Below are positions 8,943-60,826 of a stretch of 64,000 bases of DNA, piece after piece (position 1 is the first letter of the stretch; the number at the start of each line of letters is the position of its first letter). Source of the stretch: Chlorobiota bacterium (GTDB lineage: Bacteria > Bacteroidota > Ignavibacteria > OLB7); assembly GCA_016788565.1 (NCBI GenBank), contig JAEUSP010000064.1:289-64288 (forward strand), in the 5' to 3' direction. Both the position numbers and the translations under genes were made by a program. The notes beneath the pieces were generated by a model, which did not search any database, was not told the origin of the DNA, and saw nothing but the letters and a program-made list of their open reading frames with translations.

Positions 8943-9881
8943 CTAATTCACCCAATGTCTTCCTAAAACAACCTTTATTCCGAACTGGTATTGTTTCCAA
9001 TTAGTTTTTGGTATCGTTGAGGTAAAGGGAAAAGAGAGAAAAATTTCTCCCCCACTTATTGCTCCTATATATGCAGTATTCCACCCTAATGAGAGTACAC
9101 AGTTGTAGCGATTTTTGTTCGACTCCTGAAACTCTGTTTCGGTGTCAAATTGAATTGTGTCGGCATTATTGTGATATCTAACCCCATCGTTTTCATTTGC
9201 AATATGAACGAATTGGGATTTCCTGCTTGAAAGCAAATGCTTAGAATCTAATTGAATACCCACATAATAACAAGATGAAATTGATAAAATCTTTGAATTA
9301 AAAAACACTCCATAGACAGGGATAAGAAACCCAATACTTCCTGAGATGAATTTCTCATTTAGATTCAACACATTTACCTCTTTAATTGATCCTATTCTAC
9401 CTGAGTAGAGCAGGTAGGATCGAGTTGTATCAAGTGAGAATAGCATACTTTCTTGATGTTGGAATCCGCCGCCAACAAGAATGATTCCAATTGGAATTTG
9501 CTGCCGAAAAGCAATTCCTACTTCCCAATAGGAAGTTGTTGGAAAATCTGAATTTTTAAATCTTCCGTTAGGTGTAGTAATAAGTTTTTGTTGATCTTGA
9601 TAAGGATTATTTGATGAGAATGCCATTGTAGTTGGGTGAAACGAATTTGCCCGGATAGCATCAGCACAATCAATAACATCACCTCCCGAGAACCAAAACA
9701 GCAATGATTGGGCAGGATCAGGAGCCGGGAACCATCCATGGGAATAATGATCAATAGTATCCGTAAATTGATATTTCTTTGCTTCTTCGTCAATATTTTG
9801 CCATAAAGAATCAATAGACTGCGCATAAGCATCAGATAAAATCACGATGCAGGATAGGAAAAATAATAGATGTATTTGCAT
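8943..9881 (-). CDS. Hypothetical secreted protein encoded in an AT-rich island
   Basis: It has an N-terminal signal peptide (MQIHLLFFLSCIVILSDAYAQ). Local GC is roughly 35%, against about 60% in the flanks. I recognised no conserved domain. Confidence 0.55.
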   Translation of the reverse strand: MQIHLLFFLSCIVILSDAYAQSIDSLWQNIDEEAKKYQFTDTIDHYSHGWFPAPDPAQSLLFWFSGGDVIDCADAIRANSFHPTTMAFSSNNPYQDQQKLITTPNGRFKNSDFPTTSYWEVGIAFRQQIPIGIILVGGGFQHQESMLFSLDTTRSYLLYSGRIGSIKEVNVLNLNEKFISGSIGFLIPVYGVFFNSKILSISSCYYVGIQLDSKHLLSSRKSQFVHIANENDGVRYHNNADTIQFDTETEFQESNKNRYNCVLSLGWNTAYIGAISGGEIFLSFPFTSTIPKTNWKQYQFGIKVVLGRHWVN

Positions 9882-38545: not shown

Positions 38546-39280
38546 TCAATCAATCTTTGCTTGTTCTATTACTCGGTCATCAATAATCGCATTGTTGGTT
38601 TTTAAATCAGCATCATTCATTCCTGTTGCCAGTATTCTCAATTTTATTTTGACTTGCTTATCTGTGAATTTGCTATTGCTTCTGGCGCGGATCAGAATGT
38701 TCTTTTGTTCGTTAAACTTCACCGTTGAGTCTTGATTCTTGAAGTCAAAATGAATCTTCGCTAATGTGCTTAGAGTTGCAAATGTTGGAGGGAAAAGGGC
38801 GTAAGTCAAAGGAAAGTCTTCCTGATTTTCAGAATCAGGAACTAAGCTAACAACAACGGATAGCATACCTCCATTAGGTGAGTTTGGGGATGTTAGATTC
38901 TTTGCATAGTACGTCCCTGACACATCCAAATTCATTGATAAAGTGTCATCAATACTGAGTTGAAATGGCTGGCTATAGCAATAAAAAATTTCTGGATTTT
39001 TTTTATGATGAATAAGCTGAGGTTCAATTGGTATGGACTGCTGAACACCAGAAGAAGTAGTAATCACAACAGAGCCTACTTCTGTTGTGAAATTGAATTT
39101 TACCTCTTTTTTATCAAAGAAGTGATGGTATGCTCCTGCTACTGTCACTCCATTTGTAAATTTTGTAGAAGTAGTCTGACCGAAGCAAAGGGTCACTCCT
39201 AAAAATATAGAAGCAACGCTCACGATGGAGCAAAGAGTTGTTTTCATTGATCGTTCAGTTGTGTTTTGAAGATTCATCAC
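38546..39280 (-). CDS. Hypothetical secreted protein (AT-rich island; paralog of 39277..39990)
   Basis: Signal peptide. Local GC is roughly 38%. It shares 'VQ(Q/R)SI..(E/Q)P', 'F(Y/S)(C/W)YS(Q/E)PF(Q/E)L', 'SG(T/S)YY' and 'KI(K/R)LR(I/L)' blocks with the adjacent gene. Confidence 0.6.
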   Translation of the reverse strand: MMNLQNTTERSMKTTLCSIVSVASIFLGVTLCFGQTTSTKFTNGVTVAGAYHHFFDKKEVKFNFTTEVGSVVITTSSGVQQSIPIEPQLIHHKKNPEIFYCYSQPFQLSIDDTLSMNLDVSGTYYAKNLTSPNSPNGGMLSVVVSLVPDSENQEDFPLTYALFPPTFATLSTLAKIHFDFKNQDSTVKFNEQKNILIRARSNSKFTDKQVKIKLRILATGMNDADLKTNNAIIDDRVIEQAKID

Positions 39281-39990
39281 TGCAAATCTTCATCTACTTT
39301 GTTGTCAGTATGAAATGGGTTTACGTTCTGAATTTTCAAATCGGAAGTGTGTATTTTGCTGGAATACACGCCTAAGCGAAGCCTAATTTTTTTAGAAGAA
39401 AGGCCTTTTCTCATTTTTGAATTATCTATAACAATAGGCTTTGTTTGATTGAATGCTATTGGTTGTGCATTGTGAAACTTCACAACATATTCTTCCCTAG
39501 TGCTCAAAACATGATCTTGCTGAGTTTCACTACTTTTACGTAGGGGATTGTCTTCGATTAAGTTGACATAAACAAGAAACTCATCTCCGTTCAAAATATC
39601 TGAAGATTTAGGGAGTGTACTGGTGTTGTAGTAGCTTCCCAAAATGTGCATATCAGCCTTAACGGTGTCAGTAGTGAATAATTCAAATGGCTCACTATAC
39701 CAATAGGAAAGCTCTGAATCTGTACTTCCAACAGGTTTAGGCTCTGGCTGCATTGTGATGGAGCGTTGTACTCCATCAGGGCTTGCTATTTGAATTTTTC
39801 CAAATTCAATCTCAAATGTGAATGTACAGTTCTTTGTACTATGTTCCCCTTTTATTAAAAGGCTATTAGCAATCTCCTTGCTTGTGGTATTTATACCAGT
39901 ATTGCCACTTACCCCGAGTACCAGAAAAATGGCCGGTATAAAACTGAGTAATTGTTGGAATTGGGGGAACGTCTGCATGGTAATCCGCAA
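39277..39990 (-). CDS. Hypothetical secreted protein (AT-rich island; tandem paralog)
   Basis: Signal peptide (IFLVLGVSG). It overlaps the downstream paralog by 4 bp and has the same conserved blocks. Confidence 0.6.
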   Translation of the reverse strand: MRITMQTFPQFQQLLSFIPAIFLVLGVSGNTGINTTSKEIANSLLIKGEHSTKNCTFTFEIEFGKIQIASPDGVQRSITMQPEPKPVGSTDSELSYWYSEPFELFTTDTVKADMHILGSYYNTSTLPKSSDILNGDEFLVYVNLIEDNPLRKSSETQQDHVLSTREEYVVKFHNAQPIAFNQTKPIVIDNSKMRKGLSSKKIRLRLGVYSSKIHTSDLKIQNVNPFHTDNKVDEDLQ

Positions 39991-46166: not shown

Positions 46167-48080
46167 TTGATGAGCCGCACGTTGTTCGCCTGCCTGTTGC
46201 TTCCGTTGTCGCTGTTTTCTGGGGTTATCCTGGTTTCCTGCGGCAGCAATCCAGTTGACGCTGTTTCCAACAAAATCATTGCTGGCGAAAGCCGTGCGGT
46301 GGTCGTAAGCACTGTTCCGCCCTCGGGAGGAACCATGGTTGTGAATGTGCAGGGGGATTCGTTGAATGGGATGGAACTAACCGTCCCCAGCGGTGCATAT
46401 TCTGATGCCCGCACCTTCCGTATCTCTGCTGCACCAATCCAAAGCCACCAGTTGGGAAGCAACTGCAATCCGGTTACTCCATTAATCACCATCGAAAATG
46501 GGGGAGGATATGCTGATGAATTTATGACCCTCACCATCCCCATCTCCGTTCCCGACAACCACTTTGCAATGGCGTTCCTGTTCGATGACGTAACGGGCGA
46601 AATGGAAGGACTGCCGTTGGTGGAATCCACCAGCGATCACGTGAAAATTTTCACCGCAAATTTTGCCCATTCTGATATTACCGCGCTGAAACGGCGGTTG
46701 GCTTCCGGCAGTGCCAGCAGCGGGCCAAGCCGCTCCAGAATTTTTGTTTCATCCATCGAAAAAAATCTGCTTGAAGGGGCCAACGAATCCACCTTCCGCC
46801 CGGGTCTGGACGACTGGCAGTTCACCAACTACGGCTCGTATGCTGCCCCGGACGGGCATTGTGCTGGGCAAAGCCTTGCGGCAATGTGGTATCATAACAA
46901 GAAACGAATAAACGGCAGATTATATGGGCGATACGATAACGATGGCACGCGGAAAACTCCCACAATTTGGCAAGATGATGTTGGCGGCTACAAGTTCTGC
47001 TCGGTGCTGCAAAACGATATGGAATGGAATTCGTTAAGCCGAAAATTATTTTCTACAGTGCAGAGTACAATCCCAGATGTTATTACCTACTACGCTGCAT
47101 CCTACAGTTTTTTGCTGTTGCACCGCCCTCAGTTCATTGGAATTGCGAACGATACTGCAGGACATGCGGTGATTGGATATGCCATTGGTGATGGCAATAT
47201 CTATGTTGCTGACCCGAACTACCCGGGCGATGTCACGCGCCGTATTCCCTACGCGAACGGCAAATTCGGAACCTATTTTTCTGGCAGTAACGCGGCACAA
47301 ACTGGTGTGCCATTTCCCGTTATTCGTTTTTTTGGTGAGAGCGCGTTGATTGATTACTCCACCATTGAATCACGCTGGGCTGAGGTTGCTTCTGGCGAGA
47401 TCGGCAATGGGCAGTTTCCCGAATACACCGTAAAGGGGATGAACGACGCTGGAACATTTGTGCCGCTGACCAATGGTTTTACTATCAAAGGGAACACGCT
47501 GAATTTTGATATTTCTTCCACCACCTCATTGAAAATTGCAACGGTTTTTGATGAATCGGAACGTGTTCTACCAATCATCAAAGAGGCAGTTCAGCTTCCG
47601 CAGGGAATGCAGCGTGTTGGATTTTATGTCACTAATAGAACGAACGATTGGACTGGCTTTACATGGGTGCAAGTAAAAGTAGAAGGCACGGATAATCCAG
47701 CACCGCCGCCACCCACAACCGGATTATCCTTTAACGGCGAACCTTACGTTATTGGGTTAATTAACTATACGCTTGACTCTGGGCTGAGTCTCATCTTCTA
47801 TCCAAGTTTTGATGTCTTAACGTGGTTCCAGATTGGGGTAAAGCCATTTGTTGGGGTTGGGGCGTACACTGCTACCCGAGGAGATAATTACGTGGCATAT
47901 TTTGATACTCGTGGAGCCACGCCAAGCTTTAACTACAGGACAGACGAACAGCACACAGCAAAGGTAGAAATTACTCAGTTTGATGATAATTTTATTGTGG
48001 GCAAAGCAACTGGATCAATGAAAGATTTAGTCACCTTAGAAGTGCGGACATTCACGTTTGTTTTTCGAATTGAACGTTAA
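46167..48080 (+). CDS. Hypothetical lipoprotein (637 aa)
   Basis: Signal/lipobox (LLLPLSLFSGVILVSCGSNP). No recognised domain. Confidence 0.55.
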   Translation: MMSRTLFACLLLPLSLFSGVILVSCGSNPVDAVSNKIIAGESRAVVVSTVPPSGGTMVVNVQGDSLNGMELTVPSGAYSDARTFRISAAPIQSHQLGSNCNPVTPLITIENGGGYADEFMTLTIPISVPDNHFAMAFLFDDVTGEMEGLPLVESTSDHVKIFTANFAHSDITALKRRLASGSASSGPSRSRIFVSSIEKNLLEGANESTFRPGLDDWQFTNYGSYAAPDGHCAGQSLAAMWYHNKKRINGRLYGRYDNDGTRKTPTIWQDDVGGYKFCSVLQNDMEWNSLSRKLFSTVQSTIPDVITYYAASYSFLLLHRPQFIGIANDTAGHAVIGYAIGDGNIYVADPNYPGDVTRRIPYANGKFGTYFSGSNAAQTGVPFPVIRFFGESALIDYSTIESRWAEVASGEIGNGQFPEYTVKGMNDAGTFVPLTNGFTIKGNTLNFDISSTTSLKIATVFDESERVLPIIKEAVQLPQGMQRVGFYVTNRTNDWTGFTWVQVKVEGTDNPAPPPPTTGLSFNGEPYVIGLINYTLDSGLSLIFYPSFDVLTWFQIGVKPFVGVGAYTATRGDNYVAYFDTRGATPSFNYRTDEQHTAKVEITQFDDNFIVGKATGSMKDLVTLEVRTFTFVFRIER

Positions 48081-48119
48081 TAACAATTTTAGTGCATCCA
48101 CCATGAATCAGTAAAAACG

Positions 48120-49274
48120 ATGAAACAATCCTCCTCTAAAAACAAATCACGGGAAGCATCAGCTTCACTCCATGAAGTCTTGCATGACGCTACTGGCCAA
48201 TTTTCAGTGATAGATATTCTGTCGGCTATTAATGACCTTCTGAAAAAGCAATCATGGAGTGAAGCGTTAAAAGAAATCATTCAAGAGGCTGAAACCATTG
48301 AGCCAGTTCATATTGACCTTGCGTTGCGTGCGCTCATTGATAAGCCAGACCACGAACGCGCTGAAAAATTAAACGGACTAACAGGCTATTTGCGTAGCCG
48401 AATATCTAACCCGACCCGCTGTGCGATTATTACCACTATTGCTCATTACCCTCCTATTTTCAGCGCACAGGAGCTGCTCCGTATTGCCAGTGACCAAAAT
48501 GATGATCGTGAGGTTCGGCTAACAGCATTGCGTGCATTGGCAAACAGCATTGCTGATTCGACAGTGTTCATCAGCCTGCACAATCTTATTGATCCTGAGT
48601 TATTCCGGACAAAAAACTTTTCAGAACAGGATGTCATCTGGGCGATTGCGGTGCTAAATGTTCTGGAGGCTCATCCAGCACAAATTTCTGGAAAGGCATT
48701 AACCATTGTGGAGTCGCTTGTTTATGCCCAAGACTTACGGTTGTGCCGCCGTGCTTTAGAAGTCGCTGGAACGTTGGGTGAAATTGATGCTATCGAACGG
48801 TTGTGCATGGCGGTACTTAGAAGACCTGAGTTGCAGAAATCGCTTGCCACAGCAATACAGCGGATCAGCAACAAGCCGATCAGCCTGCGCCATCTGCGTT
48901 GGGAAAATTTTGAAGAGTTGATGCGGCAGATGCTGCGAGGAATGGGGCATTTTGCAGTAGAGGTGACGCAAGCCTCGTATGATAACGGCGTAGATGTCAT
49001 TTCTAAAAGAAGCGATGGCGACGGAGAGGAGGCAGTAGTTGTGGTGCAATGCAAGTTGCGCTATCAAGGGAATATCAGCAGAGAAGATGTTGAGCATTTA
49101 CGAGATGCAATGCAGCAGCATAAAGCAAAAGAAGGAATCCTGATTACGACAGGAGGATTCTCGCGGGATGCCAAGGAGTATCAAGAGCAAAATAAATTCA
49201 TTCGGTTGTTCGACAAGAAAGAATTGCTACAACGGCTTGACAAAGTTTTTGGAGAAGGAAGGTATAAAATCTAA
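48120..49274 (+). CDS. HEAT-like repeat protein fused to a C-terminal Mrr-type restriction endonuclease catalytic domain (PD-(D/E)xK)
   Basis: The C-terminal ~120 aa read 'LMRQMLRGMGHFAVEVTQASYDNGVDVISKR...VVVVQCKLRYQGNISREDVEHLRDAMQQHKAKEGILITTGGFSRDAKEY', which matches the Mrr_cat topology (..D...D/E.VQCK.. then 'G.lvTTs.Ft..A'). The N-terminal region is leucine-rich HEAT/PBS-lyase-like helical repeats. Confidence 0.6.
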   Translation: MKQSSSKNKSREASASLHEVLHDATGQFSVIDILSAINDLLKKQSWSEALKEIIQEAETIEPVHIDLALRALIDKPDHERAEKLNGLTGYLRSRISNPTRCAIITTIAHYPPIFSAQELLRIASDQNDDREVRLTALRALANSIADSTVFISLHNLIDPELFRTKNFSEQDVIWAIAVLNVLEAHPAQISGKALTIVESLVYAQDLRLCRRALEVAGTLGEIDAIERLCMAVLRRPELQKSLATAIQRISNKPISLRHLRWENFEELMRQMLRGMGHFAVEVTQASYDNGVDVISKRSDGDGEEAVVVVQCKLRYQGNISREDVEHLRDAMQQHKAKEGILITTGGFSRDAKEYQEQNKFIRLFDKKELLQRLDKVFGEGRYKI

Positions 49275-50207
49275 TTACGGCGAGGGCCTGTAATTTCTTG
49301 ATTTATGCTCCCGCCGAGTTCTCCCCACAACCAGCCTAACTTTATCCATAATTCCCAACGTTGGGCGCGCGGCCAGCGTGTTGAAGCCTGCTTGGCGAAT
49401 TTTCTGGGCGATTGCTAATCCGCCACGCACCGTCAGTGTTAGTTCCCACCGCAATCGGCGGTGCGGAATTATCGGCAGCAGTTTGCTCCCTTCCCGCAAA
49501 AATTCTTCTGCATGCTCGGTTAGATGCTGCATCATTCGCTGGCAGTTTGGGGTGAATTTTCCGCTACGCAACTGTTCCGGCGGGCAGTCAAAGGATTGCA
49601 TGATTTCTTGCGGGATATTCACGCGGCCGCCAGGAAGATCAACCGAAATATCCTGCCAGAAATTCACCAATTGCAGCCCGGTGCAGATCATGTCGGCAAG
49701 CTGCACACGCTCCGGTGTGGCCAAGCCGAACAGATGCAGCACCAACCGCCCAATCGGGTTGGCGGAATGGCGGCAGTAGAAGAGCAGGTCATCCATTGTG
49801 TGGTAGCCACCGTTGCGGGCATCCATCCGAAACGCCGTCAGCAAATCGCGCAGCAATTGGGCCGGGATGGAGTGCTGGCTGATGGTGGCGGCAAGGGCGG
49901 TAAAAATCGGGCCAGTAGGTTTCCCGCTGCACGCATCATCAAGGTGATGTTCCCATTCATCCAGCCGCCGCAACCGTTCTTCCACAGAAAAATTTCCTTC
50001 ATCGGCAATGTCATCTGCGGCGCGGCTGAAGGCGTAGATGGCCGCCACGTGGGGCCGCAACGATTTCGGGATCAGCACCGAGGCCACGGGGAAATTTTCG
50101 TAATGCTGGCGTGCCACCCGCTGGCAGTGGGCGAACGCTTCGGCCACCCCCCATTGCTCGGTTTGGAGTGAGGTTGCGGCTCTGTTCGTTGGTTCTATCA
50201 GTTCCAT
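49275..50207 (-). CDS. Squalene/phytoene synthase family paralog (HpnC/HpnD/CrtM-like)
   Basis: 'YAFSRAADDIADEG' is the first Asp-rich motif. 'GLQLVNFWQDISVDLPGGRVNIPQE' is the second motif region. Confidence 0.75.
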   Translation of the reverse strand: MELIEPTNRAATSLQTEQWGVAEAFAHCQRVARQHYENFPVASVLIPKSLRPHVAAIYAFSRAADDIADEGNFSVEERLRRLDEWEHHLDDACSGKPTGPIFTALAATISQHSIPAQLLRDLLTAFRMDARNGGYHTMDDLLFYCRHSANPIGRLVLHLFGLATPERVQLADMICTGLQLVNFWQDISVDLPGGRVNIPQEIMQSFDCPPEQLRSGKFTPNCQRMMQHLTEHAEEFLREGSKLLPIIPHRRLRWELTLTVRGGLAIAQKIRQAGFNTLAARPTLGIMDKVRLVVGRTRREHKSRNYRPSP

Positions 50208-50476: not shown

Positions 50477-53400
50477 ATGCACTTCTTGCTCCTCTCCGCT
50501 GTCCTTGCTGGTCTTCTTCTCCCTTCTTTTTGTGCTTCTGCCCAATCGGGAAAAGTGGCATCCAACAAAGGGCAATCCAACAAGGGGAAATCCAACAACA
50601 ACACCCTGCTTTGGCGCATCAGCGGGAAGGGGTTACGGCAACAATCGTACTTGTTCGGAACCTACCACACCCGCGACCCCCGCGCATTTCAGTTCACCGA
50701 TTCGATGGTGAAAGCGTTCAGAACATCCGCCGCTTTTTTTGGCGAACTCCATCTTGACTCAGCCGCACGCGACTACTACCAACACCACCTTTCCGAAGCC
50801 CCGATTGATATTGCCGCGCTGTTCGCTTCGGCTCTCTCGGGCAATATCTATCCCACCCGGCAAACCCCTCTGCCGTGGGGAGCAACCCCATTCGGCGGGG
50901 AAGATGACACGGTTGTTTCCAGCCCTTATCCGGTTTTTCTTGATGCTTGGTTGTTCCGCCACGCACAGTTGCAGGGGAAACAGGTTGGCGGGCTGGAAGA
51001 ACTATCGGCGCAACTGGGCATTTTCACTCCCGACCCAAAATTCCTGCGCCGCGACACGGAGGCCACGGAGGAAAATGCCGGGTTGGCCACCACCTTCCTA
51101 CGCTACATGCGGGAAGGGCAGATGGAGTTCTACCAAAACCAAGACCTTGAAAGCATCGAGCAAACGATGAACTGGATGAAAGAATTGCAGGGGGGAAAAA
51201 GGGTGATGGAGAAGATGCTGGACGACCGAAATGTTGGGATGGTGGCGCGGATTGATTCGCTTGTTCGGCTTGCCCCCAGTTTCATCACCCTGGGGTGTGC
51301 GCACCTGCTGGGAAAAAAAGGGGTGGTTGCGTTGCTGCGGAAAAAAGGCTACACCATTACCCCGATTCACTCACCCAAATCTGGGGCCACCGTTGCGGCC
51401 AGCTCCACCAGCCTAACCCGCCCCGATTGGAATGCGTACTCACTGTTCGGTGGGGAAACCAGTGCCGAGCTTCCGATTGAGCCAGTGGCGTTTGCGCCCG
51501 GCACGCGGCCGATGGGTGCATGGAGCAGCCAACTGACGATTGCCCCCGATGTTGGGGCCGGCATCAACTATTTCCTGGCGAAGCTCACCCTCCCTCCACA
51601 TCAGCTTGTGACCAACTGGCCAACACTGATGCGTGCCTGCTTGGCAATCCTTTCCGACAGCAGTAACCAGCTTGTTGTTGGCCAGGTGATTCCTGCCGAC
51701 ACCGCTGACGGGCAAAACGCGATGGCGAACGTGGTGGCCGTGACCGCAGCCAGCCAACGGCTTCGCGCACGGTTGCTGATGCGGGGCGATCAACTCTATC
51801 TGCTTGCTGCTGGTTCCGATGTTGACCTACCCAGCGACAGCGGTGTGGAGCGTCTCTTCCGTTCGTTCCGGCTTGCCCCAATTCCGGAAAGCCGTTGGGA
51901 AACTCTAACGTTCGACACTGGGCGTTGTGCGGTGCGGTTCCCCAGCAATCGCCATTCTTTTTCGGTTGCATTGGGGACCACAACCACACCGCAGCAAGGG
52001 GCGGCGGCCCAGCATGACGGGACAACTTTCACGATAACGGTTGAGCATCTGCCAAACTACGTGCCGTATCAAGGCGACTTGGCCAACATGGTGTGGACAA
52101 TTTTGGGGTTGCGGGGAAGCAATCACCTTGCCGTTCCTGAGATAGTTCACGATTCTGGCCAGTCTGGCACCGGCATTGCCCAGCTTTGGTTTTCCATGCA
52201 GGTCCCCGGCGGAAGCGGTGGGATGCGGGGAACAGTTCTGCGCGATGGCACCTTTGAATATCTGCTGACAGCAAGCCACCCAACAGCAATGCCAGTGCAA
52301 TCAAGCGTGGATAGCTTCTTCAGCTCTTTCCAGAGTTTACCGCTGGCTCCGCTTCCGTGGCAAACGTTTTCCAGCTACGTGCTTGGGTTCAAAGTGAATA
52401 TGCCGGGGAAGGCCAGCATTAGCGATAAATCGGAGAGTAGATTACAGCATGACGAAGCCACAATAGTTGCCTTGGACGACACGCTGAATGGTGGTGAGTA
52501 TGAGGTCCGTTCGCTGCTGCTGAATCCATATCTGCAGCTGCCGAACTTGGACTCGCTGTTCCAACGTGAGGTGTCCTATTCTTTCACCAGGGATATGGTG
52601 CTATCAAGCGGAGCGGTTGCCACCAGCAGTGGGGTTGCGGGGGAGTATATCTATGGCAAGCCACAAGGCGTAGCGGCCACTCGCTATCGGTTGGTGCAGC
52701 AGGGGCGGCGCGCGTTTCTGCTCTCCTATTTTGGTAATCAGGGGCGATTGCGTGATTCATCGGTGGAGCGTTTCTTCAGCTCCTTCCAGCCACTTGGCGA
52801 AACCGAACAATGGGAACTTTCCGCCGACAAGGTGCCGCAACTGTTGGCCGATATTTTCCTTGAAACAGAGGCCGGGGGCCGTGCGCGTGACTTGATGAAC
52901 AAATACAAGGCAACCACGCTGTTGGCCGTGCAGCCCCGCCACCTTCCGCTTGTGTATGGGATCATAGATTCCTTGCTGGCCGTTGGTGATTTTGTTGATG
53001 ATGCTGATTCCGTTGGCGATGCCATTGCCGTTGATGATGAAAACGAAGTGGAAGAAGATGCGTTGGGCGGTTTGGTGAGTTGGTTGCAGGAAGTTCACGA
53101 CACGCTAACACCGCAATTCCTGAAGGAGCGGTACGGCAAGTTCCCAAGCAATTCAACAAAAGGCGCACTGATATCTACGCTGCTCCAGATCGGTTCGGAG
53201 GAATCGCTGCACGCTGCGGCGGAGCTGCTGCAACAGCATCAACAAGACTCCATCACGCTTGAATCGCTTGCATGGGCCGGCATTGATAGCGGAACAACGG
53301 GGGCGATGTACCCTGGCATTTTGAGCTTGGCAGAAATGAAGATTTATCAGGAAGACTTGTACGTGCTGACATCCAGAGCGTTGGGCAAAAAACTTATCTC

Positions 53401-54094
53401 AGCCAACGCACTGCTCCCCCATCGCGAAATTCTGGTGAGCAATTTTTGCAGCCATATCCAGGAGCTTGCAACGCTGGACAACAGCCAGGAGAAGGATGAA
53501 AACCAGCGGTGGGATTTGCGGTGGAAACTGCTGCAACTCATGGATTGTCTGGGATACCTGCCCGCGGCGGCTGATCTGGATTCATTGCTGCGGCAATGCG
53601 CAGCAACGGACGACATCCGGCTTTCGGTGGCCGCATCCATCGCGCTGCTGCGGCATGGCGAAGAAGTACACGACACGGTGCTCCAGGCGTATGCGGCTGC
53701 GCCAGAAAATCGGCTATGGTTATACCGCCAGATGGAGGGGTATGGGATTGCCAATCACTTCCCCGCAAAATTCCAAAACCGGGCATCGTTTGCCGAAAGC
53801 AGCCTTGCGGAGTGGTTTGAAATGGAGGATGGCGTGCCCACGATTATTGAGTTGCTTGGCGAGCGAGCTATCCGTTGGAAAGAATCGGAATCCACGTGCT
53901 ATCTGTTCCGCTACACTTGGGACAGCACCGCCGCCGATGCCACGTGGGGAAGCGGCGTTGTGATTGTGAACCCCGCAACACAACCCGATCTTGAACCCAC
54001 AGTCAGCACCGACTACGACAGCCTGGAAGAGCTAACCGACGATGAGAAAATCCGATATTTTTTGATGAGAGAATCGCCACCATATTCCAGGTAG
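50477..54094 (+). CDS. Large secreted protein (1205 aa) with an N-terminal TraB/GumN-family domain and a long C-terminal helical extension
   Basis: Signal peptide (LLLSAVLAGLLLPSFCASAQ). 'LWRISGKGLRQQSYLFGTYHTRDPRAF' matches the GumN/TraB 'LW.v...g..yLfGTiH' N-terminal signature. Confidence 0.55.
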   Translation: MHFLLLSAVLAGLLLPSFCASAQSGKVASNKGQSNKGKSNNNTLLWRISGKGLRQQSYLFGTYHTRDPRAFQFTDSMVKAFRTSAAFFGELHLDSAARDYYQHHLSEAPIDIAALFASALSGNIYPTRQTPLPWGATPFGGEDDTVVSSPYPVFLDAWLFRHAQLQGKQVGGLEELSAQLGIFTPDPKFLRRDTEATEENAGLATTFLRYMREGQMEFYQNQDLESIEQTMNWMKELQGGKRVMEKMLDDRNVGMVARIDSLVRLAPSFITLGCAHLLGKKGVVALLRKKGYTITPIHSPKSGATVAASSTSLTRPDWNAYSLFGGETSAELPIEPVAFAPGTRPMGAWSSQLTIAPDVGAGINYFLAKLTLPPHQLVTNWPTLMRACLAILSDSSNQLVVGQVIPADTADGQNAMANVVAVTAASQRLRARLLMRGDQLYLLAAGSDVDLPSDSGVERLFRSFRLAPIPESRWETLTFDTGRCAVRFPSNRHSFSVALGTTTTPQQGAAAQHDGTTFTITVEHLPNYVPYQGDLANMVWTILGLRGSNHLAVPEIVHDSGQSGTGIAQLWFSMQVPGGSGGMRGTVLRDGTFEYLLTASHPTAMPVQSSVDSFFSSFQSLPLAPLPWQTFSSYVLGFKVNMPGKASISDKSESRLQHDEATIVALDDTLNGGEYEVRSLLLNPYLQLPNLDSLFQREVSYSFTRDMVLSSGAVATSSGVAGEYIYGKPQGVAATRYRLVQQGRRAFLLSYFGNQGRLRDSSVERFFSSFQPLGETEQWELSADKVPQLLADIFLETEAGGRARDLMNKYKATTLLAVQPRHLPLVYGIIDSLLAVGDFVDDADSVGDAIAVDDENEVEEDALGGLVSWLQEVHDTLTPQFLKERYGKFPSNSTKGALISTLLQIGSEESLHAAAELLQQHQQDSITLESLAWAGIDSGTTGAMYPGILSLAEMKIYQEDLYVLTSRALGKKLISANALLPHREILVSNFCSHIQELATLDNSQEKDENQRWDLRWKLLQLMDCLGYLPAAADLDSLLRQCAATDDIRLSVAASIALLRHGEEVHDTVLQAYAAAPENRLWLYRQMEGYGIANHFPAKFQNRASFAESSLAEWFEMEDGVPTIIELLGERAIRWKESESTCYLFRYTWDSTAADATWGSGVVIVNPATQPDLEPTVSTDYDSLEELTDDEKIRYFLMRESPPYSR

Positions 54095-54140: not shown

Positions 54141-57100
54141 TCACTGCAACTCTTCCTCCAACTCATCTTCCGGAACCCGCCCCGTCCATTCTTCCAGAAG
54201 GGTTGCGGCCCCTTCGGGGTCGGATTCGCGGCGCAGTGCGGCAACGGTTCCAATCACGGCTTGGCGTAGTCGGGATTCAAACTCGTCGCGCAGTGTCTCG
54301 AATAATTCATCATACAGTGCTGGGAAAGGAACGCGCCCAGCCGCAATCCGAACCGCCCCAAGAAGCGACTCGTGTGCGGCCACCAACCGCCCACGCCGCA
54401 GCGCGGACTCGGCTTGTTTCAGCAACTCCCACGCTTCTATCAGATCAATTCTCACCACCTCCATTGCCAACTCTGGAACTTCATCGCCGCTGATGATGGC
54501 GTTGTGGCCAATGGCTTCGCGCAGGCGCATCACCGCAACGTTGGTGGCCACCCGCGCCCGCTCTGGGTCGGTATCAATTCCGCTGGCAAGCGTGGTGAAG
54601 GTCAGTTTATCTAACGGTTTGCGGAGCATTCGCATGGCCACCAGCAGCCCCAGCAGAGCCTGGTTCCGCCCGCCGCGCAGCCGTGTTGGTTCCTGCTGGC
54701 CGGGCTGCTGCATGGTGATGGTATCAATCATGCTGATTGCCAAGCCGGCATGATGCTCCGCCGGTTTCTGCTGATTGCGCCGCTCCTGTTCAATTACTCC
54801 TTCCCGCTTCCGCCATTCTTTCATTTCGCGCGCCGAAAGCCAGCCGCCGTGGTAGCGTAGCAATCCCGAAATTGGTGCTGGCAAGTTCCGCTGGGCATAC
54901 CAATCGAACAAGCGAAGTACCAGCACGCTAGCCCCGCGTTGGATGTGCGCTGGAATTGCCACGCTGTTGGTGCGCTGGGCATGTGCCAGCAACTCCAACA
55001 CCGGATAGATTGCACGGAGTTGCAGCAGTGAGATCACCGGCTCATCCAGAAATCGCGCAAGCGTTTCCCAAAACTCCGCCCCCCCCTGCTCCGCACCGCT
55101 GCAGATGCTGAAGAGTTGAAAAATATCCGGCTTGCTGTTTGGTGGGATTGCGGGCAGTTGCGATTCCGCTGCCGCATGGTCGCCACGGCGGAGGGCAAGC
55201 GCAAGCTCAATCGGTGGGTCGCCAGCACCGCGTGGGAAGCAATGCTCGGCAGCAAATTCGGCAAGCTGGGGGGTGTTGCAGTACAGGGCAATCTGCATCA
55301 GGCTTTCGCCAACCATTCGGTGGCAGCGGTCTTCGGTAAGCCACCCGGCATATTCTTTCTGCTTGGCTTCGGCCAGCAGTTCGGTGGCGGTTCGGAGTAG
55401 GTGTTGCGGGTTGGTTCCGGTCATTCCTTCTGCAATCAGTTGGTGCATCCGGGTGGCGTAGTAGGGGCCGAACAATCCGCGTTGGCGCAGCGCCGGAAGC
55501 AGTTGGGCCGCTTGCTGAAGCATTGCATCGGAGCAATCGGTGGCGTACAAGAATGTCCCTTTTCGGACCTGCAGATCAAGGTCGGTGGGGTTGGCGCGCT
55601 CCAGTCTATCAAGCAGTTGCTGGCGGTGGGCAAGCTCTTCGGGGGTGTTGAACAGCATCAGTGTGGAGCGCATCAGCCGAACAAACACCGTGTGCCGGAA
55701 CCCTTCGCTGAAAGCGGTGGTGTTCACCAAGCCAAGAATCACTTCCTCCAGCTCCCTCATCTGCTGGCTGTTTTGGGTGTTGTGGGCGTGCACCGTCAGG
55801 TCCCCGAGGAACCGGACGTACTCGTAGCTTCCGCGCAGTTCGGGGTGGTTGGCCACCAGCATCTGCGCCTGCTCGGCAAACTCTTGTTCTTCCCCTTTTC
55901 CATTTCCAACAGCGTAGCGGTACAAGTGGTTCAGTGCCACCAGATGGAGTTGCAGCATCGGAAGCCGTGTGCCGGATTCCGCAAGTTGAAGAAGCTGCCG
56001 GGCGGTTTGTTGATATTGATCCGAAGTTGTGTTTCGGTTCCGAAGCTCTAAGTGTCGGGCAATCAATAATCCCCGCTGCTCGGCCTGTTGTTCGGGGGGA
56101 AGCAGTTGTTCGGAAGCCAGCCGGATCAAGGCTTCCAGCGATTCCAGAATTTCCGCGCTTCTTGGCCAGTCGGGGGTTCCGTCCACGTAGCGCGTGGCTA
56201 AGTGCATCTGGTCGGCGCAGGCAATGGCTTCGGCGGCGGTGCACCCTTCCAGCGTCTGGGCCGTGCGGAATTGCAGCAGCGGGAGGAAGGAGTAAATCGG
56301 GAGATTCAGCCCAATGGCCCGCACCAAACCAACAATGGCTGCCGGCATAATTGCAGGCGCAGACGTTGCAGCGGTGATGAACCCTTGATGGAGCAACGTG
56401 TGGGTGAAGGCTATCGGCAGCCCGCCGCTTTGCTTGCTGTTCAACGCTGCCACCGGCGTTGTGGAGTGCGCCAGCAGCCCCTTAAAAATCAAAGCGTTGA
56501 TAACGTTGCGGGCGTTTGGCAGCATCTGGACGGCGGCTTCTTCGGAGAAAACCTCACCCAGCAGTGCCAGCTTGCTTGCTTCCTCCAATTGCTCCGGCGT
56601 AAGGTCGGCGGTCATTCCTTGCACCACGCCACTGGTGCTTAGTTCGGCCACTTGCCGGAACGCCCCCAGGTTCACCTGCACGGTTCGGTTCCGGTCGTAC
56701 TCCTGCTGTGTGATGCTTCCCCAGCGAACCCCAGCGCGAACGGCTGCCCGGATTGCCAGAACGTTCCCTTGCGTTGCGGCCATCAGAACATCCAACGCTT
56801 GCGGCGGCGGTGGGGCGGAAAACAGCGCGCCCCACAGCAATGCCACGTGGTTGTTGGGAAGCCCCTCCAATGTCAGTTCGTCGGTCAGATAGCTTTCGAT
56901 AAGCCCACGTGCGGGAAGCTCAAGTGGGCGCGCGGCAACCAGCAGTGCAATCGGCTCATCATTCAGCGAATCCACCAGCATCGCAAACTCGCGCAGTGTC
57001 CCCCCTTCCAGCAAATGGATATCCTCGATAATCAGCAACGTGCGCCGCAACGCACACAGCCGCCGAAGGATGCTGATGCAGCCCGGCAACGCAGGCGGAA

Positions 57101-57416
57101 CAACGCGCGGGGCCAGTTTGCTTGCCGTGGCCGAGCGTTCAATCCCGGCAGCAAGCAGCGGCCCCAGCGATACCGAACCTTCCGGGCGCAACCGCAGGTG
57201 GATCACCGCCCCCTGGGCCTGCTCCACTTGTGGGATTACTTCTTCAATCAGGCGGCTTTTTCCAATCCCCGCTTCCCCCCGCAGCAGCATTGCCCGCAGC
57301 TCCGTTTGGTTTGGGTTGCGCTGATGCCAGAAACGGAGAATGGCCGCAATTTCTTCGGCACGTCCGGTGAACGGAAGCGTGCCGTGGTTCAGAAAATCAA
57401 CAAATGATTCGTGCAT
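54141..57416 (-). CDS. STAND-type P-loop NTPase (AAA_16-like ATPase followed by long helical/TPR-like repeats), with no obvious effector or DNA-binding domain
   Basis: Walker A 'LLRGEAGIGKSRLIEEV' near the N-terminus. Walker B 'LLIIEDIHLLEGGT', which corresponds to the 'DDLHWAD' family signature. The remaining ~800 aa are alpha-helical. Confidence 0.6.
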   Translation of the reverse strand: MHESFVDFLNHGTLPFTGRAEEIAAILRFWHQRNPNQTELRAMLLRGEAGIGKSRLIEEVIPQVEQAQGAVIHLRLRPEGSVSLGPLLAAGIERSATASKLAPRVVPPALPGCISILRRLCALRRTLLIIEDIHLLEGGTLREFAMLVDSLNDEPIALLVAARPLELPARGLIESYLTDELTLEGLPNNHVALLWGALFSAPPPPQALDVLMAATQGNVLAIRAAVRAGVRWGSITQQEYDRNRTVQVNLGAFRQVAELSTSGVVQGMTADLTPEQLEEASKLALLGEVFSEEAAVQMLPNARNVINALIFKGLLAHSTTPVAALNSKQSGGLPIAFTHTLLHQGFITAATSAPAIMPAAIVGLVRAIGLNLPIYSFLPLLQFRTAQTLEGCTAAEAIACADQMHLATRYVDGTPDWPRSAEILESLEALIRLASEQLLPPEQQAEQRGLLIARHLELRNRNTTSDQYQQTARQLLQLAESGTRLPMLQLHLVALNHLYRYAVGNGKGEEQEFAEQAQMLVANHPELRGSYEYVRFLGDLTVHAHNTQNSQQMRELEEVILGLVNTTAFSEGFRHTVFVRLMRSTLMLFNTPEELAHRQQLLDRLERANPTDLDLQVRKGTFLYATDCSDAMLQQAAQLLPALRQRGLFGPYYATRMHQLIAEGMTGTNPQHLLRTATELLAEAKQKEYAGWLTEDRCHRMVGESLMQIALYCNTPQLAEFAAEHCFPRGAGDPPIELALALRRGDHAAAESQLPAIPPNSKPDIFQLFSICSGAEQGGAEFWETLARFLDEPVISLLQLRAIYPVLELLAHAQRTNSVAIPAHIQRGASVLVLRLFDWYAQRNLPAPISGLLRYHGGWLSAREMKEWRKREGVIEQERRNQQKPAEHHAGLAISMIDTITMQQPGQQEPTRLRGGRNQALLGLLVAMRMLRKPLDKLTFTTLASGIDTDPERARVATNVAVMRLREAIGHNAIISGDEVPELAMEVVRIDLIEAWELLKQAESALRRGRLVAAHESLLGAVRIAAGRVPFPALYDELFETLRDEFESRLRQAVIGTVAALRRESDPEGAATLLEEWTGRVPEDELEEELQ

Positions 57417-58644: not shown

Positions 58645-58691
58645 GCACCGGCGCAGAAGGATTCCCCTTTCCGCGCCGGTGCTTGTTTTTT
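58645..58691 (+). terminator. Rho-independent terminator
   Basis: 'gcaccggcgc' pairs with 'gcgccggtgc' and is followed by 'ttgtttttt'. Confidence 0.6.
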
Positions 58692-58834
58692 GGGGGGGCT
58701 ATCGGTTTTCCGGTGGCGCGTTGGCAGGTTCAAGTATCGGCAAGGTGGACATTTTCTGGACATGGCTTGATTGGCAAGCTCGGCTATTCCATCTTTGCTC
58801 ACGCATTCCACAAAAACCGATCCGTTCCCTCCGC

Positions 58835-60826
58835 ATGGCAACCACTGATAGCACCAACCTTGAACCCGTTACCGCCGCCGAGCTGCAACGCATTCTATCG
58901 AACCATAGGCTTCGGAACAAAGGGGCTGCGGTAGCCGAGTTGTTCCGCCATCGCGAAATTGCAATGCAGGATGCCACGCCAGTGTTGGAAATGATTATCC
59001 CGCTGGCCACGCTGCTTCACCAAACACTCCAGTCTCCGAAAAATCCGGCGGCCCAACGGAGCGCGCAACGCGACTACGCATTCCTGATGTGTGTAATCCA
59101 CTATCTGAAATTATGGGGAGGGCAAAGCTCGCAAGCGATGCTGGAGGAAAGCCAGCAAACGGAGGAGTTGGCCGAACGGGCGGAAGACTGGAGAAGCGTG
59201 GTATTCGCCATCAGCAATCAGGCCTGGATACTGGGGCAACTTGGGCAGATAGATGAATCGCTTGCCGTTGGGCGCAAGTCGCTATCAATCGCGCAGACGC
59301 GGGGGCTGCCCGCTATCACGATCGTGCATAATCTGAACAACATTGCGCAACGGCTGTACATCAATTTTAAGCAGCCAGAAAAAGCGCTGGAGCTTTCGGA
59401 TCAAGCGTTGGAGCTTCTTGCAACTGGCGGATATTCCAGCGTGGCCATCTGCAACACCTTCGACCTGCGCGGAAGAATTCTTTTGCAGCTACGGCGGATT
59501 GAGGAAGGGATGCGGATGCTATCCACCGCCCAGCAACTTGCCTTTGAAGCGGGGCAGGATGATCTGGGCATCCGTTCGGCGTTGGAGGTTATCGGGCAGT
59601 GGTTCGCCACCGAGGAATACACGTTGGCACTGGAGCACTCGCGGCGGATGGAGTCGTTTAATCCGGCAGTAGTTTCCCGCACACGAGCCGCCGAGCTGGC
59701 CTGCGCCGTGGGGCGAATAATGATAAAGCTGGGCGAACTTCCCATTGCCCGCGACAAACTGACCAAAGCCGAAGAACTTGCCCAAGATATCAACCGCTCG
59801 GGGCTGCGATTCCAAGTTGAAATGGCAATCGGAAGGCTGCATATTGCCGAGGGCGAGGGGGGCAAAGGGGAGCAGAGAACAAAAGCTGCGCTGGCGATTG
59901 TTGAACATCACAAGCTGCGCCCCGCAGCAGAGTGCGCGGCGTTGGTCCAGCTTGGCGAAGCGCACCAAGCGCAGGGGAATACAGAGGATGCCGAACGGAA
60001 CTACCAACAAGCATTAGGGCTGGCAATACAGCACCAACATATCGGCAGCATTATTGCTGCGCACCGGTTATTGGGAAACCTGAAAGAAGCATTGGGCCGG
60101 ATTGATGAGGCAAAATCCCACTACCACCACGTGCTGGAAACACCACGCGCTATTCAAGCTCACGAAAACGCCATGCTGGCCGCCGAACGCCTTGCCGAAA
60201 TTGCTAAATCGGAGGGAAATTTTTCTGAGGCACTGGAACACTACGAACGCTACCACGCCATCTGCCGCCAGATTGATGAGCGGAAGCAAAACAACCGCAT
60301 CACCATGCTGCGGGTGTATTACCGGATTGACGAATTAGAAGACCAAGCCGAACAGGAACGCGCCGCAAAAGAACACGCCCACAGCATTTTGAACTCCACC
60401 CAAACCGACCTTGATGGCTTGCGTGTGGCATTAATCGAACACCAGCACCAAGTGAAAATGCTGCGTGGGCGGCTGCAAACAATTATGGGAAATATGGAGC
60501 GGGAAAAAGGGGAGCAAACCTTTGGAGAATTGCGTTCGCTTGCGCGCGAAATTGACGGAAGCAGCGCAACCGGGCAAGCACAATGGCAGGCCAATCTGCG
60601 AAGCACCAACAAGGAATTTCACCAGCGGTTGCTGAAAAAACATCCGGCACTTTCGCCCGCCTTGGCGTTGCTGTGCGATTGCATCCACTCCGGCATGACC
60701 ACCGATGCAATTCTTGCTGTGCTGCATATTTCATCCGACGCGTTAAACAAACGCCGGCATCGCTTGCGGAAAGTATTGCTGCTATCCCCCAATCAAAAAT
60801 TGGATGAGTATTTGCAAGGGCTGTAA
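58835..60826 (+). CDS. TPR-repeat protein with a C-terminal LuxR/GerE-type HTH; putative transcriptional regulator
   Basis: Multiple TPR-like 'A...Y..AL.L' repeats. C-terminal 'LSPALALLCDCIHSGMTTDAILAVLHISSDALNKRRHRLRKVL' has the LuxR-type HTH pattern. The start was set at 'MATTDSTNLEP' (the ATG at 58835). Confidence 0.55.
   Translation: MATTDSTNLEPVTAAELQRILSNHRLRNKGAAVAELFRHREIAMQDATPVLEMIIPLATLLHQTLQSPKNPAAQRSAQRDYAFLMCVIHYLKLWGGQSSQAMLEESQQTEELAERAEDWRSVVFAISNQAWILGQLGQIDESLAVGRKSLSIAQTRGLPAITIVHNLNNIAQRLYINFKQPEKALELSDQALELLATGGYSSVAICNTFDLRGRILLQLRRIEEGMRMLSTAQQLAFEAGQDDLGIRSALEVIGQWFATEEYTLALEHSRRMESFNPAVVSRTRAAELACAVGRIMIKLGELPIARDKLTKAEELAQDINRSGLRFQVEMAIGRLHIAEGEGGKGEQRTKAALAIVEHHKLRPAAECAALVQLGEAHQAQGNTEDAERNYQQALGLAIQHQHIGSIIAAHRLLGNLKEALGRIDEAKSHYHHVLETPRAIQAHENAMLAAERLAEIAKSEGNFSEALEHYERYHAICRQIDERKQNNRITMLRVYYRIDELEDQAEQERAAKEHAHSILNSTQTDLDGLRVALIEHQHQVKMLRGRLQTIMGNMEREKGEQTFGELRSLAREIDGSSATGQAQWQANLRSTNKEFHQRLLKKHPALSPALALLCDCIHSGMTTDAILAVLHISSDALNKRRHRLRKVLLLSPNQKLDEYLQGL

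What the first reader, a model, noticed from the sequence alone, without database searches (positions are those of the whole stretch)
48120..49274. HEAT-repeat protein fused to an Mrr-type restriction-endonuclease domain
The C-terminal 120 aa carry a clear Mrr_cat (PD-(D/E)xK) signature. The N-terminal two thirds are HEAT-like helical repeats. There is no adjacent methyltransferase or specificity subunit. Mrr_cat domains fused to sensor-like repeat domains are a recurring theme in phage-defence effectors, so this may be a single-gene nucleic-acid-targeting defence or sensing protein. HEAT-Mrr is not a standard restriction-enzyme layout.
Basis: partly seen in the sequence, partly recalled or inferred. 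Interest (0 to 1): 0.6.

Follow-up and report, generated by a model that had tools for sequence, protein, structure and literature searches.

The report
Stand-alone HEAT-repeat–Mrr nuclease gene cassette
This gene encodes a rare, horizontally mobile protein that joins an acidic HEAT-repeat domain to an intact Mrr-type DNA-cutting domain, and because its relatives sit among anti-phage genes it is a credible but untested one-gene candidate defence nuclease.

Summary

The fusion defines a small family with a fixed architecture, about 30 clusters among 1.84 billion representatives. No member was found in 72,556 plasmid records, 50,697 phage records, the viral contigs or a narrow-pattern scan of GTDB species genomes.

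The window copy is a ~1.2-kb low-GC cassette (GC3 0.44 against 0.65-0.69). It is absent from a sister genome and sits at a different intergenic site in two others. It is under purifying selection (dN/dS 0.11-0.16).

Six of seven independent contexts of distant members are defence, toxin-antitoxin or mobile islands (DISARM twice, DruE/UvrD, BrxL/GmrSD, TIR/integrase, MNT-HepT). No partner gene or methyltransferase is conserved.

Best reading: a stand-alone immune nuclease whose acidic HEAT domain senses or regulates. It is a new architectural variant of Mrr-effector defence proteins. The function itself is untested.

The parts
48120..49274 (+). Complete HEAT-Mrr gene (384 aa; ATG start, TAA stop)
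   Evidence: ORF list. Orthologues at 99%, 78% and 78% identity. dN/dS 0.11-0.16.
48168..48869 (+). N-terminal HEAT_PBS-type alpha-solenoid (aa ~17-250, about 6 helical hairpins). It is acidic and its first 200 aa are poorly conserved.
48726..48887 (+). Last HEAT repeat plus linker helix (aa 203-256). This is the best-conserved part of the N-domain, with the signature R.RA.E..G.LGEID.IER.C ... KP. It probably forms the interface with the nuclease domain.
   Evidence: A212, G217 and P253 are invariant; D223 and E226 are 97% conserved; C229 is 86% conserved. Block conservation is 0.51-0.53 against 0.19-0.38 for aa 1-200. The interface role is inferred.
48888..49235 (+). Mrr_cat PD-(D/E)xK nuclease domain (aa 257-372), basic
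48912..48914 (+). Codon for E265 (helix-1 glutamate of the FE motif)
   Evidence: F264 and E265 are invariant in 29 sequences.
48981..49055 (+). Catalytic core: D288-N-G290-V-D292 ... V-V-Q310-C311-K312 (Mrr-type D...QxK)
   Evidence: D288, G290, D292, Q310, C311 and K312 are 100% conserved among the members that have the domain. Codon coordinates checked.
48084..49285 (+). Extent of the mobile cassette shared with L002 and L003 (about 36 bp upstream of the ATG to about 10 bp past the stop)
   Evidence: blastn: window 48084/48090-49284/49285 matches L002 1549-2748 and L003 277-1472, which lie in a different flanking context. No flanking repeats beyond chance.
48081..49329 (.). Segment present in the window but absent from the sister genome L005 ('Armatimonadota' MAG SJ842), where the p637 and hpnC stop codons lie ~14 bp apart
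   Evidence: blastn and tblastn of the window against L005. Junction sequences. L005 ORFs.
49275..49329 (-). Remodelled 3' end of hpnC: its last ~15 codons have no counterpart in L005, and its stop codon abuts the HEAT-Mrr stop codon with 0 bp between them
   Evidence: tblastn aligns hpnC aa 3-295 only. Window hpnC is 310 aa against 297 aa in L005. Sequence.

Best explanation
The gene encodes a cytoplasmic, single-polypeptide, stand-alone nuclease of the immune or anti-mobile-element kind. An acidic HEAT_PBS-type alpha-solenoid (aa ~17-250) is joined by a conserved last repeat and linker to a catalytically competent Mrr-type PD-(D/E)xK nuclease (aa 257-384).

Proposed mechanism. The nuclease cuts DNA. 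The HEAT domain does not clamp the DNA backbone. It acts as the sensing or regulatory module, most likely by binding a protein ligand (a phage or plasmid protein, or a host complex) and/or by holding the basic nuclease domain inactive until triggered. Activation would involve oligomerisation, as in other Mrr-like enzymes. No methyltransferase or partner gene is needed.

The gene moves horizontally as a ~1.2-kb cassette and is kept by selection where present.

Shown: domain identities, intact active site, fixed family architecture, mobility, purifying selection, defence-island association, absence of a conserved partner.

Inferred: defence function, DNA as substrate, protein sensing or autoinhibition by the HEAT domain, oligomerisation.

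For: Active site: F264, E265, D288, G290, D292, Q310, C311 and K312 are 100% conserved among the members that have the nuclease domain. Mrr_cat scores 98 bits against 61 bits for the 'inactive' NA-iREase1 model.

Fixed architecture: 28/29 members carry Mrr_cat and 22/29 hit HEAT_2.

Accessory and mobile: absent from L005, at a different site in L002/L003; GC3 0.44 against 0.65-0.69, and lower GC than the rest of the locus in 7/8 loci; a frameshifted copy lies beside a DDE transposase.

Selection: dN/dS 0.08-0.23 in every domain.

Defence contexts: DISARM DrmMI/DrmA/DrmB/DrmC at 246-1312 bits in L006; DrmD 928 bits and DrmMI 1103 bits in L012; DruE-like plus GajB-like UvrD in L017; BrxL 632 bits in L001; TIR plus integrase; a toxin-antitoxin islet.

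No conserved neighbour.

HEAT as sensor rather than DNA clamp: the N-domain is acidic or near-neutral in all 27 members (median pI 5.7, net charge 0 to -16), while the nuclease domain is basic (median pI 8.6). Its first 200 aa are the most variable part. Its nearest sequence relatives outside the family include the HEAT arrays of nSTAND1 and NACHT NTPases.

The literature shows Mrr_cat as a recurrent defence effector in Lamassu, Avs, NLR-like systems and Epona (bioRxiv 10.1101/2024.07.02.601686; PMC9122126).
Against: There is no experimental evidence for defence, nuclease activity or substrate. The window copy is flanked by envelope and hopanoid-pathway genes, not defence genes, and none of its neighbours hits PADLOC. 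Only seven independent contexts could be read, one of them (L019) beside recBCD with no recognised defence gene, and I did not compute a background rate for defence-gene proximity. Net charge is a crude proxy, since a local basic groove on the solenoid cannot be excluded without coordinates. No full-length relative was found on plasmids, phages or viral contigs, so any link to known mobile vehicles is indirect. The PADLOC models match only the nuclease part.
Confidence: 0.55

Rival explanations
1. It is a Type IV (modification-dependent) restriction endonuclease in which the HEAT-like solenoid replaces the usual winged-helix or SRA reader and itself recognises modified DNA. HEAT-like-repeat glycosylases of the AlkD type scan DNA for alkylated bases in a comparable way (from my own knowledge).
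For: Mrr_cat is the catalytic domain of Mrr-type Type IV enzymes. PADLOC mREase_IV models hit 27/29 members. The nuclease domain resembles MspJI and AspBHI, both modification-dependent. No cognate methyltransferase is present.
Confidence: 0.2
2. It is an accessory nuclease that docks through its HEAT scaffold onto helicase or translocase defence machines (DISARM, ARMADA, Druantia, RecBCD-like). It would supply or supplement their cutting activity, much as the HEAT protein INTS4 scaffolds the INTS9/11 nuclease.
Against: The window, L002/L003, L015/16 and L020 copies have no helicase neighbour. No partner family is conserved. The DISARM and ARMADA gene sets are defined without such a component, and the ARMADA/YprA census paper mentions neither Mrr nor a HEAT protein in its main text. 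Adjacency inside defence islands is expected by chance clustering.
Confidence: 0.15
3. It is a non-defence protein: a housekeeping repair or recombination nuclease, a selfish addiction-type element, or a catalytically dead adaptor of the NA-iREase1 type.
For: The window copy lies among housekeeping-type genes. One relative lies beside recBCD. PF22722 NA-iREase1 matches at E=1.5e-16.
Against: The distribution is extremely sparse (about 30 clusters in 1.84 billion representatives). The gene is present or absent among sister genomes. Its GC is foreign to the genome. The catalytic residues are invariant and Mrr_cat outscores NA-iREase1. No NACHT or STAND domain is present in the protein.
Confidence: 0.07

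Closest known systems
Mrr-family Type IV restriction endonucleases (E. coli Mrr) and MspJI/AspBHI modification-dependent enzymes
   Same: They share the C-terminal Mrr-type PD-(D/E)xK nuclease with a D...QxK active site. Each is a single polypeptide with an N-terminal non-catalytic domain and a C-terminal nuclease. None needs a cognate methyltransferase.
   Different: The N-terminal domain here is an acidic HEAT solenoid, not a winged-helix (Mrr_N) or SRA-like reader of modified DNA. No Mrr_N hit was obtained. Dependence on DNA modification is untested.
PADLOC candidate PDC-S02 (DUF8426 + Mrr_cat single-gene candidate)
   Same: It is a single-gene Mrr_cat protein found in defence islands. A true PDC-S02 gene lies right next to a HEAT-Mrr gene in Nannocystis.
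   Different: Only the Mrr part matches (about 97 of 390 model positions). The true PDC-S02 matches its model end to end (5-330 of 334, 254 bits) and has a DUF8426 N-domain, not HEAT.
Avs/AVAST and other STAND/NLR-like defence NTPases with Mrr-like or REase effectors and repeat (TPR/HEAT) sensor arms
   Same: Both combine a helical-repeat domain with an Mrr-type nuclease. The nearest non-family sequence relatives of the N-domain include nSTAND1-HEAT and NACHT-HEAT proteins. The second-best Pfam hit of the C-domain is a NACHT-associated REase. Mrr_cat effectors in STAND proteins are described in PMC9122126.
   Different: There is no NTPase domain at all. The domain order is inverted (repeats N-terminal, nuclease C-terminal). 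The protein is far smaller (384 aa against more than 1,000 aa).
Epona and other integron-cassette Mrr_cat fusions (bioRxiv 10.1101/2024.07.02.601686)
   Same: These are compact single-gene cassettes with Mrr_cat fused to a non-nuclease domain, and they were validated as anti-phage.
   Different: Epona fuses Mrr_cat to a holin-like transmembrane domain. The protein here is soluble with a HEAT solenoid. No integron attC-like or other flanking repeats were found.

Membership tests
Pfam Mrr_cat (PF04471) nuclease superfamily | Significant match to the Mrr_cat model above the gathering score | tested here: met
   98.1 bits against a cut-off of 21, E=4.6e-28, aa 257-372 covering model positions 2-114 of 115.
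Pfam Mrr_cat (PF04471) nuclease superfamily | Conserved E ... D ... (Q/E)xK active-site residues (Bujnicki & Rychlewski 2001, as cited in PMC3424549) | tested here: met
   E265, D288, D292 and Q310-C-K312 are conserved in every family member that has the domain.
Pfam Mrr_cat (PF04471) nuclease superfamily | PD-(D/E)xK alpha/beta fold | tested here: met
Mrr-type Type IV restriction enzyme (E. coli Mrr-like) | N-terminal winged-helix (Mrr_N) DNA-binding domain | tested here: not met
   No Mrr_N hit in Pfam at E<=0.1. The N-domain is a HEAT solenoid.
Mrr-type Type IV restriction enzyme (E. coli Mrr-like) | Cleavage dependent on DNA modification | not testable with these tools
   This needs biochemistry or restriction assays with modified and unmodified DNA.
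HEAT repeat proteins (Pfam HEAT_2/HEAT_PBS clan) | Significant match to a HEAT repeat model | tested here: inconclusive
   The window protein alone scores 17.5 bits, below the 27.7 cut-off. However, 22/29 family members hit HEAT_2 at E<1e-3, and the family profile hits alphaRep at E=2.5e-12.
HEAT repeat proteins (Pfam HEAT_2/HEAT_PBS clan) | Alpha-solenoid of stacked helical hairpins | tested here: met
PADLOC PDC-S02 | Full-length match to a PDC-S02 model | tested here: not met
   Only model positions 240-336 of 390 (or 195-305 of 334) align, which is the Mrr part. A genuine member aligns 5-330 of 334.
NA-iREase1 (PF22722, NACHT-associated inactive REase) | Loss of catalytic residues and association with a NACHT NTPase | tested here: not met
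   The catalytic residues are invariant. There is no NACHT or STAND domain in the protein. Mrr_cat outscores PF22722 by 98 to 61 bits.
Avs/STAND (NLR-like) defence proteins | Central STAND NTPase domain between effector and sensor | tested here: not met
   No P-loop or STAND hit in Pfam or PADLOC. The linker between the domains is about 10 residues.
Classical restriction-modification system | Cognate methyltransferase (and specificity subunit) in the locus | tested here: not met
   The window has none within ~10 kb. Across lineages no family, methyltransferase or other, is conserved within 4 kb. DrmMI in L006 and L012 belongs to DISARM.
DISARM class 1 | Being one of the core genes drmD, drmMI, drmA, drmB or drmC | tested here: not met
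   HEAT-Mrr hits none of the Drm models. It lies next to or inside DISARM loci in only 2 of 7 contexts.

The most novel reading that the evidence does not exclude
HEAT-Mrr is a minimal innate-immune receptor without an NTPase. A short HEAT sensor arm directly recognises a phage protein, and ligand binding alone drives assembly of the fused Mrr nuclease into an active oligomer. It would be a 384-aa equivalent of an Avs/NLR protein lacking the STAND switch. Its recurrent placement beside DISARM/ARMADA-type helicase systems would then reflect functional synergy.
Probability: 0.2. Interest if true: 0.7.

Novelty: new variant of a known kind. Interest (0 to 1): 0.45.

Why it matters
Mrr-type nucleases are among the most reused killing modules in prokaryotic immunity, but how each is switched on depends on the domain fused to it. 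If this is a defence protein, it would add a compact one-gene system whose trigger module is a simple HEAT solenoid, a designable protein-binding scaffold on which the alphaRep binders are built. That makes it attractive for working out how repeat sensors gate a nuclease without an NTPase, and possibly for engineering. The three sister-genome arrangements also show, at base-level resolution, a single-gene cassette hopping between intergenic sites without recognisable recombination signals.

Tried and rejected
- **GTDB species genomes:** a scan with family alignment A1 found no relative. The patterns came from close relatives and were narrow, so this is weak evidence of absence. The second scan, with the DUF4835 neighbour, found the sister MAG L005.
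- **Viral and metagenome scans:** scans with A3 failed because the alignment was too divergent. With subgroup A4 the viral scan found nothing, and the metagenome scan gave only three short contigs.
- **Word-indexed protein searches:** these saturate on generic Mrr_cat candidates and returned only 6-7 members. The exhaustive profile search with the N-domain was what revealed the family.
- **AFDB fold search:** afdb50 was unavailable.
- **Flanking repeats:** I looked for att or attC sites, target-site duplications and terminal inverted repeats. Only short matches at chance level turned up.
- **Promoters and terminators:** the sigma-70 and terminator scan found nothing on the + strand. The promoter type of this organism may not be covered.
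- **'ARMADA' lead:** I followed it as a possible ARM/HEAT-repeat system. It is a DISARM-related helicase and methyltransferase array with no HEAT or Mrr component.
- **Literature:** searches for a HEAT + Mrr fusion found no description.
- **PHROGs:** only the nuclease part matches.
- **Cysteine contact:** I considered a contact or redox link between C229 and C311. It could not be tested because model coordinates are not exposed. C311 is invariant while C229 varies, so there is no covariation.
- **p637 as a partner:** rejected, because p637 is present without HEAT-Mrr in L005 and looks like a secreted lipoprotein.

Full report
**1. The observation**

The ORF is exactly where stated: 48120-49274, + strand, 384 aa.

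Pfam gives Mrr_cat (PF04471) at aa 257-372 with E=4.6e-28 (98 bits, cut-off 21). Weaker overlapping hits go to NA-iREase1 (61 bits) and Mrr_cat_2.

The HEAT claim is not carried by the protein's own Pfam score (HEAT_2 17.5 bits against a cut-off of 27.7). It holds on other evidence:
- An AlphaFold2 model (pLDDT 86.9, pTM 0.80) shows about twelve paired helices over aa 17-250, followed by an alpha/beta domain.
- A profile of the family hits consensus HEAT_PBS alphaRep proteins at E=2.5e-12, and the nuclease domains of LlaBIII and MspJI.
- 22 of 29 relatives hit HEAT_2 at E<1e-3.
- A second model, of a ~27%-identical member (P0030), gives the same architecture at pLDDT 92.7 and pTM 0.85.

No methyltransferase or specificity gene is nearby. 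The neighbours are DUF4835, a CarboxypepD_reg protein, a 637-aa lipoprotein-like protein with no family hit, convergent squalene synthase HpnC (TIGR03464, 315 bits) and a TraB/GumN-family protein. None hits PADLOC.

**2. The family**

Word-indexed searches found only six or seven relatives. An exhaustive HMMER search of 1.84 billion cluster representatives with the N-terminal domain alone found 55 proteins at E<=1e-3.

About 30 of these are 370-420 aa proteins in which the N-domain ends at residue ~240-260. Of the 29 aligned, 28 carry Mrr_cat. The rest are long HEAT_2/HEAT_PBS arrays, and three of them are nSTAND1 or NACHT NTPases.

At ~25% identity the family keeps F264, E265, D288, G290, D292, Q310, C311 and K312 in every member that has the nuclease domain. 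This is the Mrr-type E...D...QxK site. In the last HEAT repeat and linker, A212, G217 and P253 are invariant and D223 and E226 are 97% conserved.

The first 200 residues are the most variable (mean column identity 0.19-0.38, against 0.5-0.6 for the rest).

The HEAT domain is acidic or near-neutral in all 27 members scored (median pI 5.7). The nuclease domain is basic (median pI 8.6).

The fusion is absent from several collections:
- 72,556 plasmid records and 50,697 phage records, where only nuclease-only matches appear, at most 39% coverage.
- IMG/VR contigs.
- BFVD viral structures as a whole architecture.
- The GTDB species genomes, searched with narrow patterns.

One named member exists, annotated 'restriction endonuclease', in Nannocystis sp. 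SCPEA4.

**3. The gene is a mobile accessory cassette under selection**

Three related genomes show three arrangements:
- The closest public genome (L005, a MAG labelled Armatimonadota SJ842, ~83% nt identity) has up767 - DUF4835 - CarbPepReg - p637 - hpnC, with the p637 and hpnC stop codons ~14 bp apart and no HEAT-Mrr gene.
- Two other relatives (L002 and L003, ~78-80% nt identity) have DUF4835 - HEAT-Mrr - p637, without CarbPepReg.
- The window has DUF4835 - CarbPepReg - p637 - HEAT-Mrr - hpnC.

The shared block runs from ~36 bp upstream of the ATG to ~10 bp past the stop (window ~48084-49285). No flanking repeats were found.

In the window the last ~15 codons of hpnC are not homologous to L005, and the two stop codons abut.

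GC3 is 0.44 against 0.65-0.69 for the housekeeping neighbours. The gene is GC-poorer than the rest of its locus in 7 of 8 loci.

dN/dS is 0.11-0.16 overall and below 0.25 in each domain, so the protein is maintained by selection.

A fourth lineage (L001) carries a frameshifted, N-terminally truncated copy beside a DDE transposase.

**4. Contexts of distant members**

| Locus | Member | Neighbouring genes |
|---|---|---|
| L006 | P0038, Nannocystis | Inside a DISARM class-1 locus between DrmMI (1312 bits) and DrmA/DrmB/DrmC (963/246/294 bits), next to a genuine PDC-S02 gene |
| L012-14 | P0030 | Immediately upstream of DrmD (928 bits) and DrmMI (1103 bits), then TerB and NOV_C; WD40, FHA and kinase conflict-type genes upstream |
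| L017/18 | P0020 | After a 2193-aa DruE-like DEAD-MZB helicase and a GajB-like UvrD helicase; this resembles the ArmC-ArmD pair of ARMADA (bioRxiv 10.1101/2025.09.15.676423; PMC13463889) |
| L015/16 | P0065 | Between a TIR-RHS protein and a phage-type integrase |
| L001 | P0006 | BrxL (632 bits) and GmrSD_C |
| L020 | P0060 | After MNT/HepT, BrnA and DUF4258 toxin-antitoxin genes |
| L019 | P0023 | Beside recBCD, with no recognised defence gene |

So six of seven independent contexts are defence, toxin-antitoxin or mobile islands. An all-against-all comparison of ORFs within 4 kb found no neighbour family shared between lineages.

**5. Mechanism**

Shown:
- an intact Mrr-type active site in a basic nuclease domain;
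- an acidic HEAT solenoid with a variable distal part and a conserved proximal repeat and linker;
- a fixed two-domain architecture;
- no conserved partner and no methyltransferase;
- horizontal mobility, purifying selection and defence-island association.

Inferred: the protein is a stand-alone immune nuclease that cuts DNA. The HEAT domain is the sensing or regulatory module, more likely binding a protein or masking the nuclease than clamping DNA, given its charge. Activation would involve oligomerisation, as in other Mrr-like enzymes (from my own knowledge of Mrr and MspJI tetramers). I put ~0.55 on this package. That it is a real HEAT-Mrr nuclease fusion I put above 0.9.

Rivals:
- A Type IV enzyme whose solenoid reads modified DNA (0.2). 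The Type IV kinship of the nuclease favours it. The acidic, variable N-domain and the absence of any reader-like fold match count against it.
- An accessory nuclease docking onto DISARM/ARMADA/Druantia/RecBCD-type helicases (0.15). Helicase neighbours in four of seven contexts favour it. The helicase-free window, L002/3, L015 and L020 copies, and the lack of any conserved partner, count against it.
- A non-defence or inactive role (0.07). Sparse distribution, presence/absence polymorphism and the invariant catalytic residues count against it.

**6. Comparison with known systems**

It works like a single-chain sensor-plus-Mrr effector. It is a member of the Mrr_cat superfamily (score, residues and fold all met). 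Its N-domain is a HEAT-type solenoid (fold met; its own sequence score is below threshold, but the family-level score is met).

It is not any of the following:
- **An Mrr-type Type IV enzyme in the strict sense.** It has no Mrr_N reader domain.
- **PDC-S02.** Only the nuclease part aligns, and a real PDC-S02 with a DUF8426 N-domain lies next to it in Nannocystis.
- **NA-iREase1.** The catalytic residues are kept and there is no NACHT domain.
- **An Avs/STAND protein.** It has no NTPase.
- **A classical R-M system or a DISARM core gene.**

Full-text searches found no description of the fusion. Papers in subscription journals are not covered by that library.

**7. Verdict**

The finding is a new architectural variant of a known kind (Mrr-effector defence proteins). 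It is rare and uncharacterised, and the window gives a tidy natural experiment in cassette mobility.

A specialist would find it plausible rather than startling, so I score interest at 0.45. The most novel reading not excluded is a minimal NLR-like receptor without an NTPase (probability ~0.2).

Noticed in passing
window 49275-49329 (- strand, 3' end of hpnC): The last ~15 codons of the squalene synthase gene hpnC (310 aa) have no counterpart in the sister genome's hpnC (297 aa). Its stop codon directly abuts the HEAT-Mrr stop codon. The cassette insertion appears to have re-made the C-terminal tail of a housekeeping enzyme.
   Followed up: partly
window 8943-9881 (-), 38546-39280 (-), 39277-39990 (-): Three ORFs (312, 244 and 237 aa) lie in sharp low-GC islets (GC 36-38% against a window mean of 55%). 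None has a Pfam or PADLOC hit. They are probably other foreign or accessory genes.
   Followed up: partly
window 46167-48080 (+): A 637-aa protein with a lipoprotein-like N-terminus (…LVSCGS) has no Pfam, NCBIfam, PADLOC or PHROG hit and a GC3 of 0.50. It lies next to HEAT-Mrr in three genomes, in either order, but is present without it in L005.
   Followed up: partly
window 50477-54094 (+) versus L005 9332-13541: The 1205-aa TraB/PrgY/GumN-family protein of the window is replaced in the sister genome by three unrelated ORFs (467, 444 and 457 aa). This is a second variable spot just beyond hpnC.
   Followed up: no
L006 10001-12248 (Nannocystis sp. SCPEA4, JAPNJX010000021.1): Two different Mrr_cat single-gene proteins sit convergently inside one DISARM class-1 locus, between DrmMI and DrmA: HEAT-Mrr and a full-length PDC-S02 (DUF8426-Mrr_cat). 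TerB, NOV_C and four unannotated genes lie there too.
   Followed up: partly
L006 4335-6252 and L012 19578-21125: TerB and NOV_C genes follow DrmMI in two unrelated DISARM-like loci that also carry HEAT-Mrr. Neither hits a PADLOC model. They may be unrecognised accessory components of this DISARM subtype.
   Followed up: no
window 48804-48806 (C229) and 49050-49052 (C311): A cysteine in the last HEAT repeat (86% conserved) and the cysteine inside the catalytic QCK (100% conserved) are both retained across the family. Whether they are close in space could not be checked, because model coordinates are not exposed.
   Followed up: no
window 54141-57416 (-) and 58679-60826 (+): A 1091-aa AAA_16/AAA_22 ATPase and a 715-aa TPR/MalT-like repeat protein lie a few kb downstream. 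The ATPase has no PADLOC hit and the repeat protein only a generic TPR hit. I did not examine whether they are STAND-type regulators.
   Followed up: no
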